A stretch of 23,934 nucleotides of DNA, taken from contig NW_005201277.1 of NCBI RefSeq assembly GCF_000372725.1, forward strand, positions 196,347 through 220,280, in the 5' to 3' direction. The notes below the pieces were generated by a model. That model saw only the letters and a list, made by a program, of their open reading frames with translations. It did not search any database and was not told the origin of the DNA. This DNA is from Emiliania huxleyi CCMP1516. Its lineage: Eukaryota. Of the stretch, positions 14,530-18,435 are shown in pieces; position 1 is the stretch's first letter; every line of letters begins with the position of its first letter. The position numbers and the translations under genes are program-made.

Positions 14530-17500
14530 TCATCCCTCGAGCGCCCCGATCGCCTCCGTCACCGCGGCCACGAGCCGCGACGCCTCCCGCTCGCTGCGCG
14601 GCCCGTCCCTCCTCCACCTCGCCGCGTCGTGGTGCCTCGCCGCGTTCGCCCAGATGCGCAGCGAGTGCAGCTGGCTCCGCAGCTCGGTCGGCAATCCGCA
14701 CTCGCGGTGCCAAAAGTTGATGCGCTCCTCGAAGCCGTCGGGCGCCGCCGCAGAGCGCGAGGCGTAGACGGCGTCGAGGCGCGGCATCAGCGTCTTGAAA
14801 GCGAGCATCATGTTGTCCTGGATGCGCGCCTGCGCGTCGCCGCCCGTGCGCATGCCGCGCACCTGCACCGAGAGCGGCGAAGGCTCGTAGCCGGTGGTGC
14901 GGGCGGCTGCCGCAGCGGCCTCGTCTCCAGGTGCCGGCGCAGCCTCCTCCACCCCCGCCCCGCGCTGCGAGCCAGACAGCAGCGCCCGGAGAGCTAGCAG
15001 CGCCTCGGGCAGCGTGGGCCTCTTGCGCAGGCTGTCGTGGCAGAGGCTCTTCCCGTCCGCCTTGGCGAGGTCCTTGACTGCGCGCGCCGCGTCGACTGGC
15101 CAGCCCGCAGCCACGTCGGCGAGCTTCGCCGCGTCGATGTCGGTCCAGTCCTCCTCGAACTCGTCCTCGCACCGGTCGGTCAGCTGCACCTCGGACCGGT
15201 TAGTGAGGCAGACGAGGAGGGTGATGCCAATGGCGTAGCCGTCCGTCTTGCTCGAGTACTCGCCCCCCTTGGAGATGGAGGGGCAGAGGTAGCCCGTGGA
15301 CATGTAGAGGGCAGTCGAGCGGCGGCGGACAGACGCGTCGGGACGCTGGTCCTTGGCGAAGCCCGTGTCAGCCAATACTGCGGTCAGCTTCTCGTCGAGC
15401 AGGATGTTGTCCGGCTTGACGTCGCGGTGCACGATGCCCTTCGAGTGGAGGTAGACGAGCGCCTCGGTCGCCTCGCAAGCAATGCGAACGCGCTGCCGCC
15501 ACGTCAGCGGCCTCGGCGCCTCTTCCATGCCCAACCGCCGGAGCTGCGCAGCGCGGTCGGGATCCGAGAGGCGCAGCCGCGCCTCGAGCGAGCCGCCGCG
15601 CATCAGCGGCGAGAGGAGGCAGACGCCGTCGGGCGAGAGGCAGTAGCCGAGCAGCGGCAGCAAATGCGGGTGGCTGACCGCCTTGAGCAGCTTCACCTCG
15701 AGCTCCGCCCGCGACAAGCCGCCCGACTGGCCCGACTTTGCCCGCTTGACGACGAGCGGCAAGTGGCGCAGCTGCGGAGGCGCGGCGAGGGAGAGGTGGA
15801 GGTCGGCCGACGCCTCGTAGACGTGACTGAAGCCGCCGCTGCCAATCAGCTTCCCGTCGGCGAACCCGTCGGTAGCCGCGGTGAGGTCCGACAGGGCTAG
15901 CTCGACTGGCCGAGCAAAAGCCGCCGCGGCCGGCTCGGAGGCGACAGACAGCTCTTGCAGCCGCGACTCTGCCGCGCTCACCTCCTCCTCCAGGGCAGGC
16001 AGCGCGCCCACGTGCGGCCGGGCGGCGGCGATGCCCGCTCGGAGCGCGGAGGGGCTGTCCGCTGTGTCGAGCGACTTGAGCGCGCCCATCGCCGCGCCGT
16101 GCGCCTTGCGCAGCCGCTGGCTGTCCCGCCTCCGCGCCTCCTTGAGCTTGTCGCGCACGCGCCTCGCCTCCGCCAGCACGGCCGGGCTCGCGAGGCCGCT
16201 GCACGCCTCCAGCGCGCTGGCCACGCCCTCGTACGAGCCAGCGGCCACGGCCTGCTGCAGCGCCTCGTCCGCCGCGGCGATGGCGGCTGCGTCGGCCGGA
16301 GGAGATGCTGGCGGCGGGGTTGGCGGCTGCGATGCGGCGGTGGCGCTGGGGCCAGATGCCGCATTGTCTGCCTCACCACCGCCGCTCTTCTTCTTCTTCT
16401 TCTTGCCCTTCTTGTTGGAGCGCTCCTCCTTCTCCGCCTCCTCCTCCGCCAGAAGCGCCTCGGCATGCCGCGCCGCCTCCGCCTCCGCCGCCGCCCTCTC
16501 TGCCTCCCTCGCCGCCGCGGTCTCCGCCGCCGCCGCCGCCGCATGCTCCTCGATGACGCGCACGCACTCGGCGTGGCCGTTTTCCTTGGCACACTGCAGC
16601 GCCGTCATGTTGTTCTCAGCGCGCACCGCCGCGTCAGCGCCCGCCCGCAGCAAGCGCCGCACGACGGCGGGGCGGTTGAAGAGGGCGGCGCTCATCAGCG
16701 CGGTGAAGCCTTTCTTGTCCTTCTTGTCGATCTCCGCGCCGTGCTGCAGCAGCAGCTCGACCACCCGCTCGTGGCCGTTGTTGGCGGCGCACATCAGCGC
16801 GGTGAAGCCCATGCTGTTCTGCATGTCGACCTCCGCGCCGTGCCGTATCAGCAGCTCGACCACCCGCTCATGGCGTTCCTGGGCGGCGAACATCAGGGCG
16901 GTGTAACCGTGGCTGCTCTGCAGGTTGATCTCCGCGCCGCGCCGTATCAGCAGCTCGACCACCCGCTCGTTGCCGTTTCCGGCGGCGAGCATCATCGCGG
17001 TGACGCCGCTGCTGTGCTGCATGTCGATCTCCGCGCCGTGCTGCAGCAGCAGCTCGACCGCCCGCTCGTGGTCTTCCTGGGCGGCGTACATCAGCGCGGT
17101 GTAGCCGCTGCTGTGCTGCATGTCGATCTCCGCGCCGTGCTGCAGCAGCAGCTCGACCGCCCGCTCGTGGCCTTCCTGGGCGGCGAGCATCAGCGCGGTG
17201 AAACCGTCGCTGTCCTGCCGGTTGACCTCCGCCCCGCGCTGCAGCAGCAGCTCGACCACCCGCTCGTGGCCTTCCTGGGCGGCGAGCATCAGGGCGGTGT
17301 TGCCGTCGCTGTCCTGCTTGTTGATCTCCGCGCCTCGCCGCAGCAGCAGCTCGACCACCCGCTCGTTGCCGTTTCCGGCGGCGAGCATCATCGCGGTGAT
17401 GCCGCTGCTGTGCTGCATGTCGATCTCCGCGCCGTGCTGCAGCAGCAGCTCGACCGCCCGCTCGTGGCCATGCTGGGCGGCGGCCATCAATGCAGAGCTG

Positions 17501-18435
17501 CCGCTCGCCCCGCCGACCGCGTTGACCCGCCCGCCGCTGTCGAGCCACGCCAGCAGCGCCGCCTCGTCGCCTCGCACAGCAGCTTGCCAGGCCTCTTCAG
17601 GAAGGCTGTCCAATGAGCTGGAGGAGGCCGCGGCACTCGCTCCCGCCTGTGCCTCGCCTGGGGAAGCGCCGCCCGCGCCGCCCGCCGCTGCCTCGTGCCG
17701 GCTCGCAGTCACCTCCGCGACGTGCTGCCGGAAGGCCTCGACGCACGCGGCGTGGCCGTTCTCCTTTGCCAGCTGCAGCGCGGACTGGCCGTGCACAGAG
17801 CGCAGCTTCGTATCCGCGCCCGCCCGCAGCAAGTGGAGCACGACGGCGGGGTGGCCTTCGAAAGCGGCGAGCATCAGCGCGGTCCAGCCGTCGCTGCTCT
17901 GCTTGTTGATCTCCGCGCCTCTAAGCAACAGCTCGACCACCCGCTCATGGCCGCAGCGGGCGGCGAGCATCAACGCGGTGTTGCCGTCGCTGTCCTGCTT
18001 GTTGATCTCCGCGCCTCGCCGCAGCAGCAGCTCGACCACCCGCTCGTGGCCTTGGCTGGCGGCGAGCATCAGCGCGGTGATGCCGCCGCTGTCCTGCCGG
18101 TTGATCTCCGCGCCGCGCCGTATCAGCAAGTCGACCACCCGCTCGTGGCCTTTGTTGGCGGCGGCCATCAGCGCGGTGATGCCGATGCTGCTCTGCAGGT
18201 TGATCTCCGCGCCGCCGCGAATTAGAAGGTCAACCACCCGCTCCTCACCGTGGCTGGCGGCAGTATGCAGCAGCGTGAAGTAGCTCTTACCGTTAAACTG
18301 CGCCGCGTTCACCTGGCCGCCGCTGCTGAGCCACTCCCGCAGCACACCCACCTTGCCCGCTTTTGCCGCCTTCACGACGTTTGCTGGCGCCTCACGGGGC
18401 GATTCCGCCGGCGGCGAAGCGGCTGGCGAGGGCAT
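14530..18435 (-). CDS. Ankyrin-repeat (7+11 repeats) / helical linker / RLK-Pelle(IRAK)-like protein kinase / C-terminal HEPN(DUF4145)-like domain, 1301 aa
   Basis: Ankyrin consensus TALMxAAxxGHxxVVELLLxxGAxIN. Kinase (about 15900-14975) with IGSGGFSHVY, VVK, HRDVKPDN, DTG and GYLCPS. C-terminal FEERINFW...LHSLRIWANAARH (14629-14670). Single uninterrupted ORF. Ankyrin and kinase calls are firm; the HEPN call is less certain. Confidence 0.92.
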   Translation of the reverse strand: MPSPAASPPAESPREAPANVVKAAKAGKVGVLREWLSSGGQVNAAQFNGKSYFTLLHTAASHGEERVVDLLIRGGAEINLQSSIGITALMAAANKGHERVVDLLIRRGAEINRQDSGGITALMLAASQGHERVVELLLRRGAEINKQDSDGNTALMLAARCGHERVVELLLRGAEINKQSSDGWTALMLAAFEGHPAVVLHLLRAGADTKLRSVHGQSALQLAKENGHAACVEAFRQHVAEVTASRHEAAAGGAGGASPGEAQAGASAAASSSSLDSLPEEAWQAAVRGDEAALLAWLDSGGRVNAVGGASGSSALMAAAQHGHERAVELLLQHGAEIDMQHSSGITAMMLAAGNGNERVVELLLRRGAEINKQDSDGNTALMLAAQEGHERVVELLLQRGAEVNRQDSDGFTALMLAAQEGHERAVELLLQHGAEIDMQHSSGYTALMYAAQEDHERAVELLLQHGAEIDMQHSSGVTAMMLAAGNGNERVVELLIRRGAEINLQSSHGYTALMFAAQERHERVVELLIRHGAEVDMQNSMGFTALMCAANNGHERVVELLLQHGAEIDKKDKKGFTALMSAALFNRPAVVRRLLRAGADAAVRAENNMTALQCAKENGHAECVRVIEEHAAAAAAETAAAREAERAAAEAEAARHAEALLAEEEAEKEERSNKKGKKKKKKSGGGEADNAASGPSATAASQPPTPPPASPPADAAAIAAADEALQQAVAAGSYEGVASALEACSGLASPAVLAEARRVRDKLKEARRRDSQRLRKAHGAAMGALKSLDTADSPSALRAGIAAARPHVGALPALEEEVSAAESRLQELSVASEPAAAAFARPVELALSDLTAATDGFADGKLIGSGGFSHVYEASADLHLSLAAPPQLRHLPLVVKRAKSGQSGGLSRAELEVKLLKAVSHPHLLPLLGYCLSPDGVCLLSPLMRGGSLEARLRLSDPDRAAQLRRLGMEEAPRPLTWRQRVRIACEATEALVYLHSKGIVHRDVKPDNILLDEKLTAVLADTGFAKDQRPDASVRRRSTALYMSTGYLCPSISKGGEYSSKTDGYAIGITLLVCLTNRSEVQLTDRCEDEFEEDWTDIDAAKLADVAAGWPVDAARAVKDLAKADGKSLCHDSLRKRPTLPEALLALRALLSGSQRGAGVEEAAPAPGDEAAAAAARTTGYEPSPLSVQVRGMRTGGDAQARIQDNMMLAFKTLMPRLDAVYASRSAAAPDGFEERINFWHRECGLPTELRSQLHSLRIWANAARHHDAARWRRDGPRSEREASRLVAAVTEAIGALEG
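16550..17600 (-). repeat. 99-bp coding tandem repeat (ankyrin block 2)
   Basis: agctcgacc[a/g]cccgctc recurs at a 99-nt period (16754, 16853, 16952 ... 17447). Confidence 0.95.
17725..18380 (-). repeat. About 99-bp coding tandem repeat (ankyrin block 1)
   Basis: Same unit as block 2; one repeat is a codon shorter. Confidence 0.9.

What the first reader, a model, noticed from the sequence alone, without database searches (positions are those of the whole stretch)
14530..18435. RNase L-like architecture in a non-animal genome: ankyrin sensor + kinase + HEPN-like domain in one intronless gene
Seen: 18 ankyrin repeats in two blocks, a helical linker, a protein kinase, and a ~100-aa helical C-terminal domain with FEERINFWHRECGLPTELRSQLHSLRIWANAARH. 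Known: this matches the HEPN-superfamily DUF4145 pattern (LxxRIxxL...LHxxRxxGNxAAH), and vertebrate RNase L is ANK-pseudokinase-KEN RNase, KEN being HEPN-related. Inference: this is an independently assembled sensor-kinase-RNase effector. Ligand binding to the ANK block would drive dimerisation and activate a dimeric HEPN nuclease, for example in antiviral defence or programmed death. The kinase is Pelle-like rather than IRE1-like, which argues for convergence. Caveat: the canonical HEPN R-N-xxx-H has Ala in place of Arg before the Asn (WANAARH), so the domain may bind nucleotide or dimerise without cleaving.
Basis: partly seen in the sequence, partly recalled or inferred. Interest (0 to 1): 0.9.

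Follow-up and report, generated by a model that had tools for sequence, protein, structure and literature searches.

The report
Algal RNase L look-alike gene family
A marine alga, likely Emiliania huxleyi, has a multicopy gene joining 18 ankyrin repeats, a plant-receptor-type protein kinase and a domain predicted to fold like bacterial HEPN RNA-cutting toxins, likely a separately assembled counterpart of the vertebrate antiviral enzyme RNase L, though RNA cutting and a defence role are untested.

Summary
Observation confirmed: one 1301-aa ORF with 18 ankyrin repeats (7+11), a helical linker, an RLK/Pelle-type kinase with intact catalytic residues (DTG for DFG) and a ~115-aa C-terminal domain. 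The confident model of that domain best matches HEPN-superfamily structures (Z 8-9, modest for a helical bundle). 18 of 60 aligned sequences hit DUF4145 weakly; none hits KEN.

Of 148 distinct motifs, 91 are canonical RNxxxH and 57 are [ASG]NxxRH, with the Arg one helical turn on; none has neither or both. Chrysochromulina tobinii has both states in domains 117/125 identical. The tree gives only 2 firmly independent switches, so compensation is suggested, not shown.

The kinase-HEPN core recurs behind ANK, Sel1, ARM, cold-shock, PDZ and RPA-N domains, and is multicopy in Emiliania. All named relatives are haptophytes.

Best reading: a convergent RNase L analogue, not a family member. RNase activity, dimer, ligand and expression are untested. 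Nine literature searches found no description. The scan noted other kinase+HEPN fusions on other DNA (two bacterial, two eukaryotic; unchecked).

The parts
14530..18435 (-). Whole ORF, 1301 aa: ANK(7)-ANK(11)-acidic helix/poly-Lys-helical linker-kinase-HEPN
17704..18396 (-). Ankyrin block 1, 7 repeats including caps (aa ~14-244)
16525..17610 (-). Ankyrin block 2, 11 repeats including caps (aa ~276-637); repeats close at DNA level, with amino-acid variation concentrated at a few hairpin/helix-1 positions
16366..16524 (-). Ala/Glu-rich helix followed by a poly-Lys stretch (aa ~638-690); present in relatives whatever their N-terminal domain
   Evidence: sequence; relatives
15940..16296 (-). Conserved helical linker (aa 714-832), five helices including a 40-residue one; confidently modelled
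14968..15903 (-). RLK/Pelle(IRAK)-type protein kinase (aa ~845-1156): GxGxxG, K897, E913, HRDxKPxN, DTG in place of DFG
14839..14964 (-). Low-confidence linker between kinase and HEPN (aa ~1158-1199; its end overlaps the first short helix of the domain)
   Evidence: pLDDT<50 at model 445-486
14533..14880 (-). HEPN-fold C-terminal domain (aa ~1186-1301)
14632..14649 (-). Motif A1263-N-A-A-R1267-H1268: variant of the HEPN RNxxxH motif with Arg at position 5 instead of 1

Best explanation
The gene encodes ankyrin repeats, an RLK/Pelle-type kinase with intact catalytic residues and a predicted HEPN domain, and likely works as a sensor-kinase-RNase defence switch assembled in haptophyte algae independently of RNase L. 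SHOWN: the architecture; the kinase clade; a conserved kinase-HEPN core behind exchangeable N-terminal domains; multiple copies; an invariant N..H motif that always has exactly one Arg, at position 1 or 5. PREDICTED: the HEPN fold, and A1263/R1267 lying one turn apart on the same helix. INFERRED: (1) the repeats bind a foreign or damage-linked ligand, more likely a protein than an oligonucleotide; (2) binding brings two chains together, with kinase trans-phosphorylation or nucleotide binding fixing the dimer; (3) two HEPN domains form one metal-independent RNase site in which R1267 stands in for the canonical Arg; (4) RNA cleavage halts translation and kills or silences the infected cell.
For: Fold: pLDDT 91.6. 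In the unbiased search of 48,161 chains the top rows are 1wwp (Z 9.3, rmsd 3.2, 105 aligned), 5yep (8.8, 3.2, 112), 2hsb (8.3, 3.4, 104) and 1ylm (8.0, 3.7, 112). In the second look the first 17 rows are HEPN-superfamily entries, by title, by PMC3710099 or by recall. DUF4145 hits 18 of 60 aligned sequences, best E 9.6e-6. Motif: 91 RNxxxH, 57 [ASG]NxxRH, 0 neither, 0 both, of 148 distinct motifs in 221 proteins. Among rows lacking Arg1, N is kept in 43 of 44, Arg5 in 41 of 42 and His in 41 of 42. Both states occur in C. tobinii proteins 117/125 identical over the domain. dN<dS in 23 of 23 window-versus-locus comparisons of the HEPN part. PMC3710099 section 6 predicts RNase activity for Rx4H-bearing HEPNs and notes a family in which other basic residues may replace the R. 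Kinase: nearest structures are BIK1, BAK1, BRI1 and IRAK4; catalytic residues are conserved. Defence-like pattern: variable N-termini, six CCMP1516 gene models, eight loci with different 3' flanks in one assembly, and excess amino-acid change at repeat-surface positions (pN 0.35 vs pS 0.15; 2.1% of random six-column sets reach it).
Against: Foldseek found no match at E<=0.001 (best 0.35), and Z 8-9 is under the tool's caution line of about 13 for helical bundles. The window's own domain has no Pfam, NCBIfam or PADLOC hit, and DUF4145 scores of relatives are weak (23.0 bits against a cut-off of 23.1 for the best one). The canonical Arg is needed for activity in KEN and PrrC (PMC3710099 section 6). 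The Arg5 group also mostly lacks an upstream Asp/Arg pair common in the canonical group (D1214 in 42 of 69 canonical rows, not among the four commonest residues in 37 variant rows). The Arg exchange rests on only 2 independent pairs on well-supported branches (9 on all branches; sign test p 0.5). The kinase-HEPN linker is low-confidence, so rigid RNase L-style coupling is not supported. The repeat test uses 9 of 18 repeats, non-independent pairs, and two of its six positions are invariant. Nothing here links the gene to viruses.
Confidence: 0.5

Rival explanations
1. The family is an RNase family, but this ANAARH subfamily is a pseudo-RNase. Its HEPN would bind RNA or dimerise without cutting, acting as partner or regulator of canonical RNxxxH paralogues, or pairing the kinase for phosphorylation signalling.
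For: Canonical Arg absent; upstream Asp/Arg pair mostly lost in the same group; both types coexist in E. huxleyi (P0079 RNAAEH) and C. tobinii (P0244 RNAASH); motif-lacking HEPNs act as binding domains (PMC3710099); purifying selection would also be seen on a binding surface.
Against: N, H and a new Arg are near-invariant in the variant group; no motif without an Arg among 148; near-identical domains carry either state, always with both positions changed together.
Confidence: 0.25
2. The RNase is active but serves ordinary stress or developmental signalling, in the manner of IRE1-type regulated cleavage of particular mRNAs, rather than defence.
For: Intact kinase as in IRE1; IRE1 is a kinase-HEPN machine in RNA processing (PMC10942766 passages); no data tie the gene to infection.
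Against: Copy expansion with dispersed flanks, swapped N-terminal domains and variable repeat surfaces are the pattern PMC3710099 section 9 links to defence; all named relatives are haptophytes.
Confidence: 0.15
3. The kinase-HEPN unit is a selfish, toxin-like cassette that spreads by duplication and picks up N-terminal repeats incidentally.
For: Identity between copies stops at or soon after the stop codon; fragments of the domain occur in unrelated-looking gene models P0044, P0054, P0099; nearest folds include toxin-antitoxin HEPNs.
Against: Most long relatives have a full N-terminal repeat array joined through the same linker; no close relative in viral contigs, prokaryote genomes or plasmids.
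Confidence: 0.07
4. It is a true, diverged orthologue of RNase L or IRE1, inherited as a kinase-KEN unit.
For: Same domain order as RNase L (ANK, kinase, HEPN-type domain); kinase-KEN is traced to the last eukaryotic common ancestor (PMC3710099 section 9).
Against: The kinase ranks with RLK/IRAK: the first 53 of 60 listed PDB hits and all listed fold hits. No KEN Pfam hit in 60 aligned sequences while DUF4145 hits 18. Best folds are prokaryotic HEPNs.
Confidence: 0.03

Closest known systems
Vertebrate RNase L (ANK - pseudokinase - KEN)
   Same: Soluble-looking single chain with ankyrin repeats, then a kinase fold, then a HEPN-superfamily domain; in RNase L the ANK domain is proposed to promote dimerisation (PMC10942766 passage).
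   Different: 18 repeats in two blocks (RNase L has about 9, recalled); kinase intact and RLK/Pelle-type; HEPN nearer DUF4145/HepT types than KEN; loose linker; N-terminal domain exchangeable; multicopy. A 2-5A ligand is neither shown nor tested.
IRE1 (luminal sensor - TM - kinase - KEN)
   Same: Catalytically competent kinase directly upstream of a HEPN-type RNase.
   Different: No luminal domain and no obvious membrane segment in the sequence; different kinase clade; no KEN profile match; lineage-restricted and expanded rather than pan-eukaryotic.
Prokaryotic HEPN toxins and DUF4145 (HepT/SO_3166 5yep, 6m6w; YutE 1ylm; AF0298 2hsb)
   Same: Predicted fold (Z 8-9, rmsd 3.2-3.7) and RNxxxH motif in most relatives; DUF4145 is known fused to Sel1 and other domains in bacteria (PMC3710099 Table 1 passage).
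   Different: Eukaryotic, fused behind an RLK/Pelle-type kinase; only 5-13% identity; extra conserved HxDxxRWxxxGP insert after the His; no antitoxin seen; Arg displaced in this subfamily.
RLK/Pelle-IRAK kinases (BIK1, BAK1, IRAK4)
   Same: Best sequence and fold matches of the kinase; these act in immune signalling in plants and animals (established knowledge).
   Different: Invariant DTG instead of DFG (35 of 35 rows); fused to an intracellular repeat array and a HEPN domain.

Membership tests
HEPN superfamily | All-alpha domain of ~100-120 aa with the HEPN helical bundle | tested here: met
   Model all-helical, pLDDT 91.6; top structural rows are HEPN entries, Z 8.0-9.3, 104-112 aligned. 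Z is modest for a helical bundle, so the match rests on rank enrichment plus the motif.
HEPN superfamily | Rx4H motif (R-N-x-x-x-H) in the family | tested here: met
   91 of 148 distinct motifs are RNxxxH.
HEPN superfamily | Rx4H motif in this protein | tested here: not met
   A-N-A-A-R-H: Ala at the Arg position, Arg at position 5.
HEPN superfamily | Upstream acidic Ex3[KR] motif | tested here: inconclusive
   D1214/R1218 in 42 of 69 and 47 of 79 canonical rows may correspond; the window has K/P there. Equivalence not verified structurally.
HEPN superfamily | Dimeric composite active site and metal-independent RNase activity | not testable with these tools
DUF4145 (PF13643) | Pfam score above the gathering cut-off (23.1 bits) | tested here: not met
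   Window domain: no hit. Relatives: 18 of 60 at E<=0.1, best E 9.6e-6 (bits not shown); 23.0 and 20.3 bits for P0117 and P0109. DUF4145-like, not a scored member.
RNase L / IRE1 (kinase-KEN) | KEN domain by profile (Pfam Ribonuc_2-5A; name recalled) | tested here: not met
   Not among the families hit by the protein or by any of 60 aligned sequences at E<=0.1.
RNase L / IRE1 (kinase-KEN) | KEN domain by structure | tested here: inconclusive
   Only the best 50 rows are listed; a family not listed is not excluded.
RNase L / IRE1 (kinase-KEN) | Kinase of the IRE1/RNase L clade | tested here: not met
   Best hits are RLK/IRAK: BIK1 E 9.5e-26, BAK1, BRI1, IRAK4; fold hits BAK1, IRAK4, CERK1, FERONIA. 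Ranking only, no tree.
RNase L | Pseudokinase (degenerate catalytic motifs) | tested here: not met
   Lys 28 of 29, alphaC Glu 29 of 29, HRD 33 of 34, Asn 35 of 35, Mg-binding Asp 35 of 35 rows with residues.
RNase L | N-terminal ankyrin array | tested here: met
   18 repeats.
RNase L | 2-5A binding by the ankyrin array | not tested
   No comparison with the 2-5A pocket and no search for an oligoadenylate synthetase was made; no genome was held.
RLK/Pelle (IRAK) kinases | Nearest kinase relatives are RLK/Pelle by sequence and structure | tested here: met
   nearest named non-haptophyte proteins are plant and Closterium kinases. No phylogeny run.

The most novel reading that the evidence does not exclude
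Haptophyte algae, including the virus-terminated bloom former Emiliania huxleyi, have built their own RNase L: an expanding receptor repertoire in which swappable, diversifying repeat sensors (ANK, Sel1, ARM, nucleic-acid-binding folds) are wired through a plant/animal immune-type kinase to a bacterial-type HEPN toxin. Its catalytic Arg has hopped one helical turn back and forth, defining a second active HEPN motif, [ASG]NxxRH.
Probability: 0.35. Interest if true: 0.9.

Novelty: new variant of a known kind. Interest (0 to 1): 0.74.

Why it matters
Giant viruses end Emiliania blooms (established knowledge), yet host-encoded sensors and executioners of infection are poorly defined; PMC3834299 (passages) only lists kinases and a Bax inhibitor among susceptibility-linked genes. 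A multicopy sensor-kinase-RNase family gives concrete candidates that existing infection transcriptomes and strain genomes can test. It would be a further independent origin of the kinase-HEPN pairing known from IRE1 and RNase L. The mutually exclusive Arg1/Arg5 states offer a natural experiment on HEPN catalysis, and would mean that Rx4H screens miss active nucleases.

Tried and rejected
No genome held, so no full copy count or synteny. Sequence search of PDB with the domain gave only designed helical proteins: rejected as chance. Foldseek against viral structures: nothing at E<=0.001. KEN-containing chains (IRE1, RNase L) are not among the listed rows; absence from a list is not exclusion. 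PADLOC and NCBIfam: no family recurring in more than 2 of 60 members. No close relative in viral contigs, prokaryote genomes or plasmids; these are word- or BLAST-level searches. Weak loci L029 and L031 are chance peptide matches in unrelated bacterial-type DNA; L030 was not inspected. ESM Atlas: best three hits 0.91 to unnamed clusters, two of them bacterial; named HEPN_RnaseLS and DUF4145 clusters score only 0.83-0.84, a lead only; a second query did not complete. Expression could not be checked. The first repeat-surface test used a register off by one (pN 0.43); the corrected value is (0.35); one search's version of this test crashed. The careful tree did not finish; the quick tree was used. 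L004 looks like a kinase/HEPN swap between subfamilies, but the switch lies in a short stretch identical in both parents, so an assembly chimera is equally possible; not used as evidence. Literature: nine searches found no description of this family; the library lacks most subscription journals, and only 4,325 characters of PMC3710099's supplement were held, so its alignments could list a member unseen.
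Full report
1. Observation. The minus strand 18435-14530 is one open frame of 1301 codons. A motif scan finds 18 ankyrin repeats, 7 then 11, counting caps. Pfam gives Ank_2 (E 1e-183) and Pkinase at aa 860-1146 (E 9.5e-29), and nothing for the last 106 or 140 residues at E<=1. 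The neighbouring ORF clusters at 90% identity with Emiliania huxleyi CCMP1516 proteins, and CCMP1516 gene models are 91-96% identical over the C-terminal domain. The window is therefore very likely Emiliania (inference). No genome was held.

2. The C-terminal domain is a conserved family. A search with residues 1180-1301 returned 22 proteins among 516 candidates; all 22 carry a kinase and 20 carry ankyrin repeats. The exhaustive search found 132 representatives at E<=1e-3. In an alignment of the window domain with 59 short relatives, 18 of 60 hit DUF4145 at E<=0.1 (best 9.6e-6); the next family hits 3, and no KEN family appears. The window's own domain has no hit. AlphaFold gives an all-helical model, pLDDT 91.6, pTM 0.81. 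Foldseek finds nothing at E<=0.001, but its best rows are YutE 1ylm (E 0.35, prob 0.97) and HepT chains. The unbiased search of 48,161 chains ranks 1wwp (Z 9.3, rmsd 3.2, 105 aligned), 5yep (8.8), 2hsb (8.3) and 1ylm (8.0) first. The second look puts 17 HEPN-superfamily entries ahead of the first unrelated one. HEPN status comes from titles, from PMC3710099 (1ylm, 1jog, 2hsb, 3l0i, MtlR) or from recall (1wwp, 1wty, 5yep, 9fcv). Z 8-9 is under the tool's caution line for helical bundles. The assignment rests on three weak lines agreeing (fold ranking, DUF4145, motif); I put it at about 0.9.

3. The missing Arg. Of 153 proteins, 128 matched a strict motif pattern and 25 did not, most of them apparently fragments or frameshifted. 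88 have Arg before the Asn. 40 have Ala, Ser or Gly, and all 40 have Arg four places later, just before the His. With a looser pattern on 221 proteins, 148 distinct motifs split 91 RNxxxH and 57 [ASG]NxxRH, with none lacking or doubling the Arg (the pattern requires W/G, N and H). Using alignment columns without requiring N or H, the variant group keeps N in 43 of 44, Arg5 in 41 of 42, His in 41 of 42 and Asp1270 in 39 of 42. In the model, positions 1263 and 1267 are i and i+4 of one helix (H69-86), so on the same face. C. tobinii has both states: P0015 (ANAARH) and P0244 (RNAASH), 117 of 125 residues identical. E. huxleyi also has a distant RNAAEH member, P0079. Against over-reading: a quick tree of 96 domains with the two columns masked needs 9 changes, but well-supported branches force only 2; the 2 independent pairs both agree, p 0.5. 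Gene conversion between paralogues could also move both positions together. The variant group mostly lacks an upstream Asp/Arg pair that is common in the canonical group. dN was below dS in 23 of 23 comparisons of the window HEPN with metagenome loci, all [AS]NAARH (non-independent, small counts for close pairs; these loci were found with window-derived patterns). PMC3710099 section 6 (read in full) says His is essential in KEN, RloC and PrrC, that Arg is needed in KEN and PrrC, and that one family lacking the Arg may use other basic residues. A displaced catalytic Arg is thus plausible; I put activity of this copy at about 0.55.

4. The kinase. Of the best 60 of 2353 PDB sequence hits, the first 53 are plant receptor-like or cytoplasmic kinases or IRAK1/4 (five have generic names), led by BIK1 (E 9.5e-26); the last 7 are rhodopsin kinase; IRE1 and RNase L are not listed. 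The fold search agrees: BAK1, IRAK4, CERK1, FERONIA. In a 37-row alignment the Gly loop, Lys (28 of 29), alphaC Glu (29 of 29), HRD (33 of 34), Asn and Mg-binding Asp (35 of 35) are conserved, with DTG in place of DFG in 35 of 35. So this is not a pseudokinase. A 588-aa model (pLDDT 83, pTM 0.56) shows a confident helical linker, kinase and HEPN, with about 40 low-confidence residues between the last two. IRE1 and RNase L form back-to-back kinase and HEPN dimers (PMC10942766 passage); tight coupling of that kind is not supported here.

5. A modular, expanded family. The linker-kinase-HEPN core follows ankyrins (most), Sel1 repeats (P0095, P0190, P0226), ARM repeats (P0230; ANK+ARM in P0225), a cold-shock domain (P0006), weak PDZ (P0196, P0199), RPA-N plus ANK (P0232) or unassigned regions. 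These were selected long hits, not a census. Organism names, where given, are E. huxleyi and C. tobinii only; most hits are unnamed, so the range is not established. Six CCMP1516 gene models carry the domain whole or in part. Of 31 metagenome loci, eight from one assembly are 92-98% identical to the window's 3' end but diverge in their flanks at or within about 240 bases of the stop; strain mixture cannot be excluded. L012 matches the window's own locus including the downstream gene. No close relative was found in viral contigs, prokaryote genomes or plasmids. Within the window gene, 9 full-length internal repeats (of 18) share 74-93 of 99 bases and vary mainly at hairpin and helix-1 positions. 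At the six positions randomised in designed ankyrin binders (recalled), pN is 0.35 against pS 0.15; elsewhere 0.14 against 0.10; 2.1% of random six-column sets reach 0.35. This is suggestive of a diversifying binding face, not a formal selection test.

6. Mechanism. Shown: architecture, kinase type, modularity, copy number, motif dichotomy. Predicted: HEPN fold. Inferred from HEPN biology (two domains make one site; PMC11638902 passage) and from RNase L: ligand on the repeats, then dimerisation with kinase involvement, then RNA cleavage, then translational arrest or death. Because the N-terminal domains are mostly protein-binding repeats of several unrelated kinds, a protein ligand is likelier than a single second messenger (inference). 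Expanded HEPN families in eukaryotes are argued to be defensive (PMC3710099 section 9, read in full; PMC8195603 passages). The dimer model and expression data were not available, so steps 2-4 are open.

7. Comparison and novelty. It works like RNase L/IRE1 but fails membership on KEN profile, kinase clade and pseudokinase status. It is a HEPN-superfamily domain by fold and family motif, DUF4145-like but below the Pfam cut-off. Nine full-text searches returned no description of the family. Seen as passages: PMC10853773 (no bearing), PMC3710099, PMC3834299, PMC11638902, PMC10942766, PMC8195603. Seen only as listings: PMC9503650, PMC3239186, PMC4738411 and the other rows. PMC3974923 was not held. 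PMC3710099's main text does not mention Emiliania; its supplement was held only in small part. If real, they make kinase-HEPN pairing a recurring theme rather than unique.

8. Verdict. A real, apparently undescribed haptophyte family and a likely convergent RNase L analogue, with a testable Arg-shift variant of the HEPN motif. New variant of a known kind; interest 0.74; confidence in the full mechanism 0.5.

Noticed in passing
window 9979-12522 (+): 847-aa ORF with no Pfam hit at E<=1 and no real PDB hit. By eye it has FIDD and GTYLG motifs resembling the back half of a non-LTR retrotransposon reverse transcriptase (recalled motifs, unverified).
   Followed up: partly
window 12914-14290 (+): 458-aa ORF with a HELTH zinc-protease motif, convergent with the kinase-HEPN gene; its cluster members are named 'Peptidase M4 C-terminal domain-containing protein' of Emiliania huxleyi. 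The same pairing with the HEPN end occurs in L012 (95.8% over 1995 bases).
   Followed up: partly
window 18635-20827 (+): Pentatricopeptide-repeat gene pieces, divergent from the finding and starting about 200 bases from its start codon.
   Followed up: no
window 1839-2378 (+): ORF with a weak PLOD-type glycosyltransferase hit (E 0.0018, under the cut-off).
   Followed up: no
window 21970-23934 (+): Long tandem proline-rich repeat frame interrupted by a run of N.
   Followed up: no
L004:900-1830 versus L010:3330-4270: L004 has L010's kinase subfamily (mostly 56-60 of 60 bases per block) but the window's HEPN type (57-59 of 60); the switch falls in a short shared identical stretch. Real domain swap or assembly chimera. 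L010 has Sel1 repeats upstream.
   Followed up: partly
L015:749-949: A short piece like the start of the window's ankyrin block 2 is joined directly to the last third of the HEPN domain: a rearranged or deleted copy.
   Followed up: no
proteins P0235, P0238: More distant repeat-plus-kinase proteins end in a Cys-rich, RING-like start instead of HEPN (zf-C3HC4_3 E 0.17 for P0235; P0238 by eye), hinting that the C-terminal effector is also exchangeable.
   Followed up: partly
window 15363-15371 (-), kinase aa 1023-1025: DTG replaces DFG in 35 of 35 aligned family kinases: a family signature that may alter activation-loop control.
   Followed up: partly
protein P0226: Sel1-kinase protein whose C-terminal RNAAEH domain is a diverged HEPN subtype (E 1e-13 to the family profile).
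   Followed up: no
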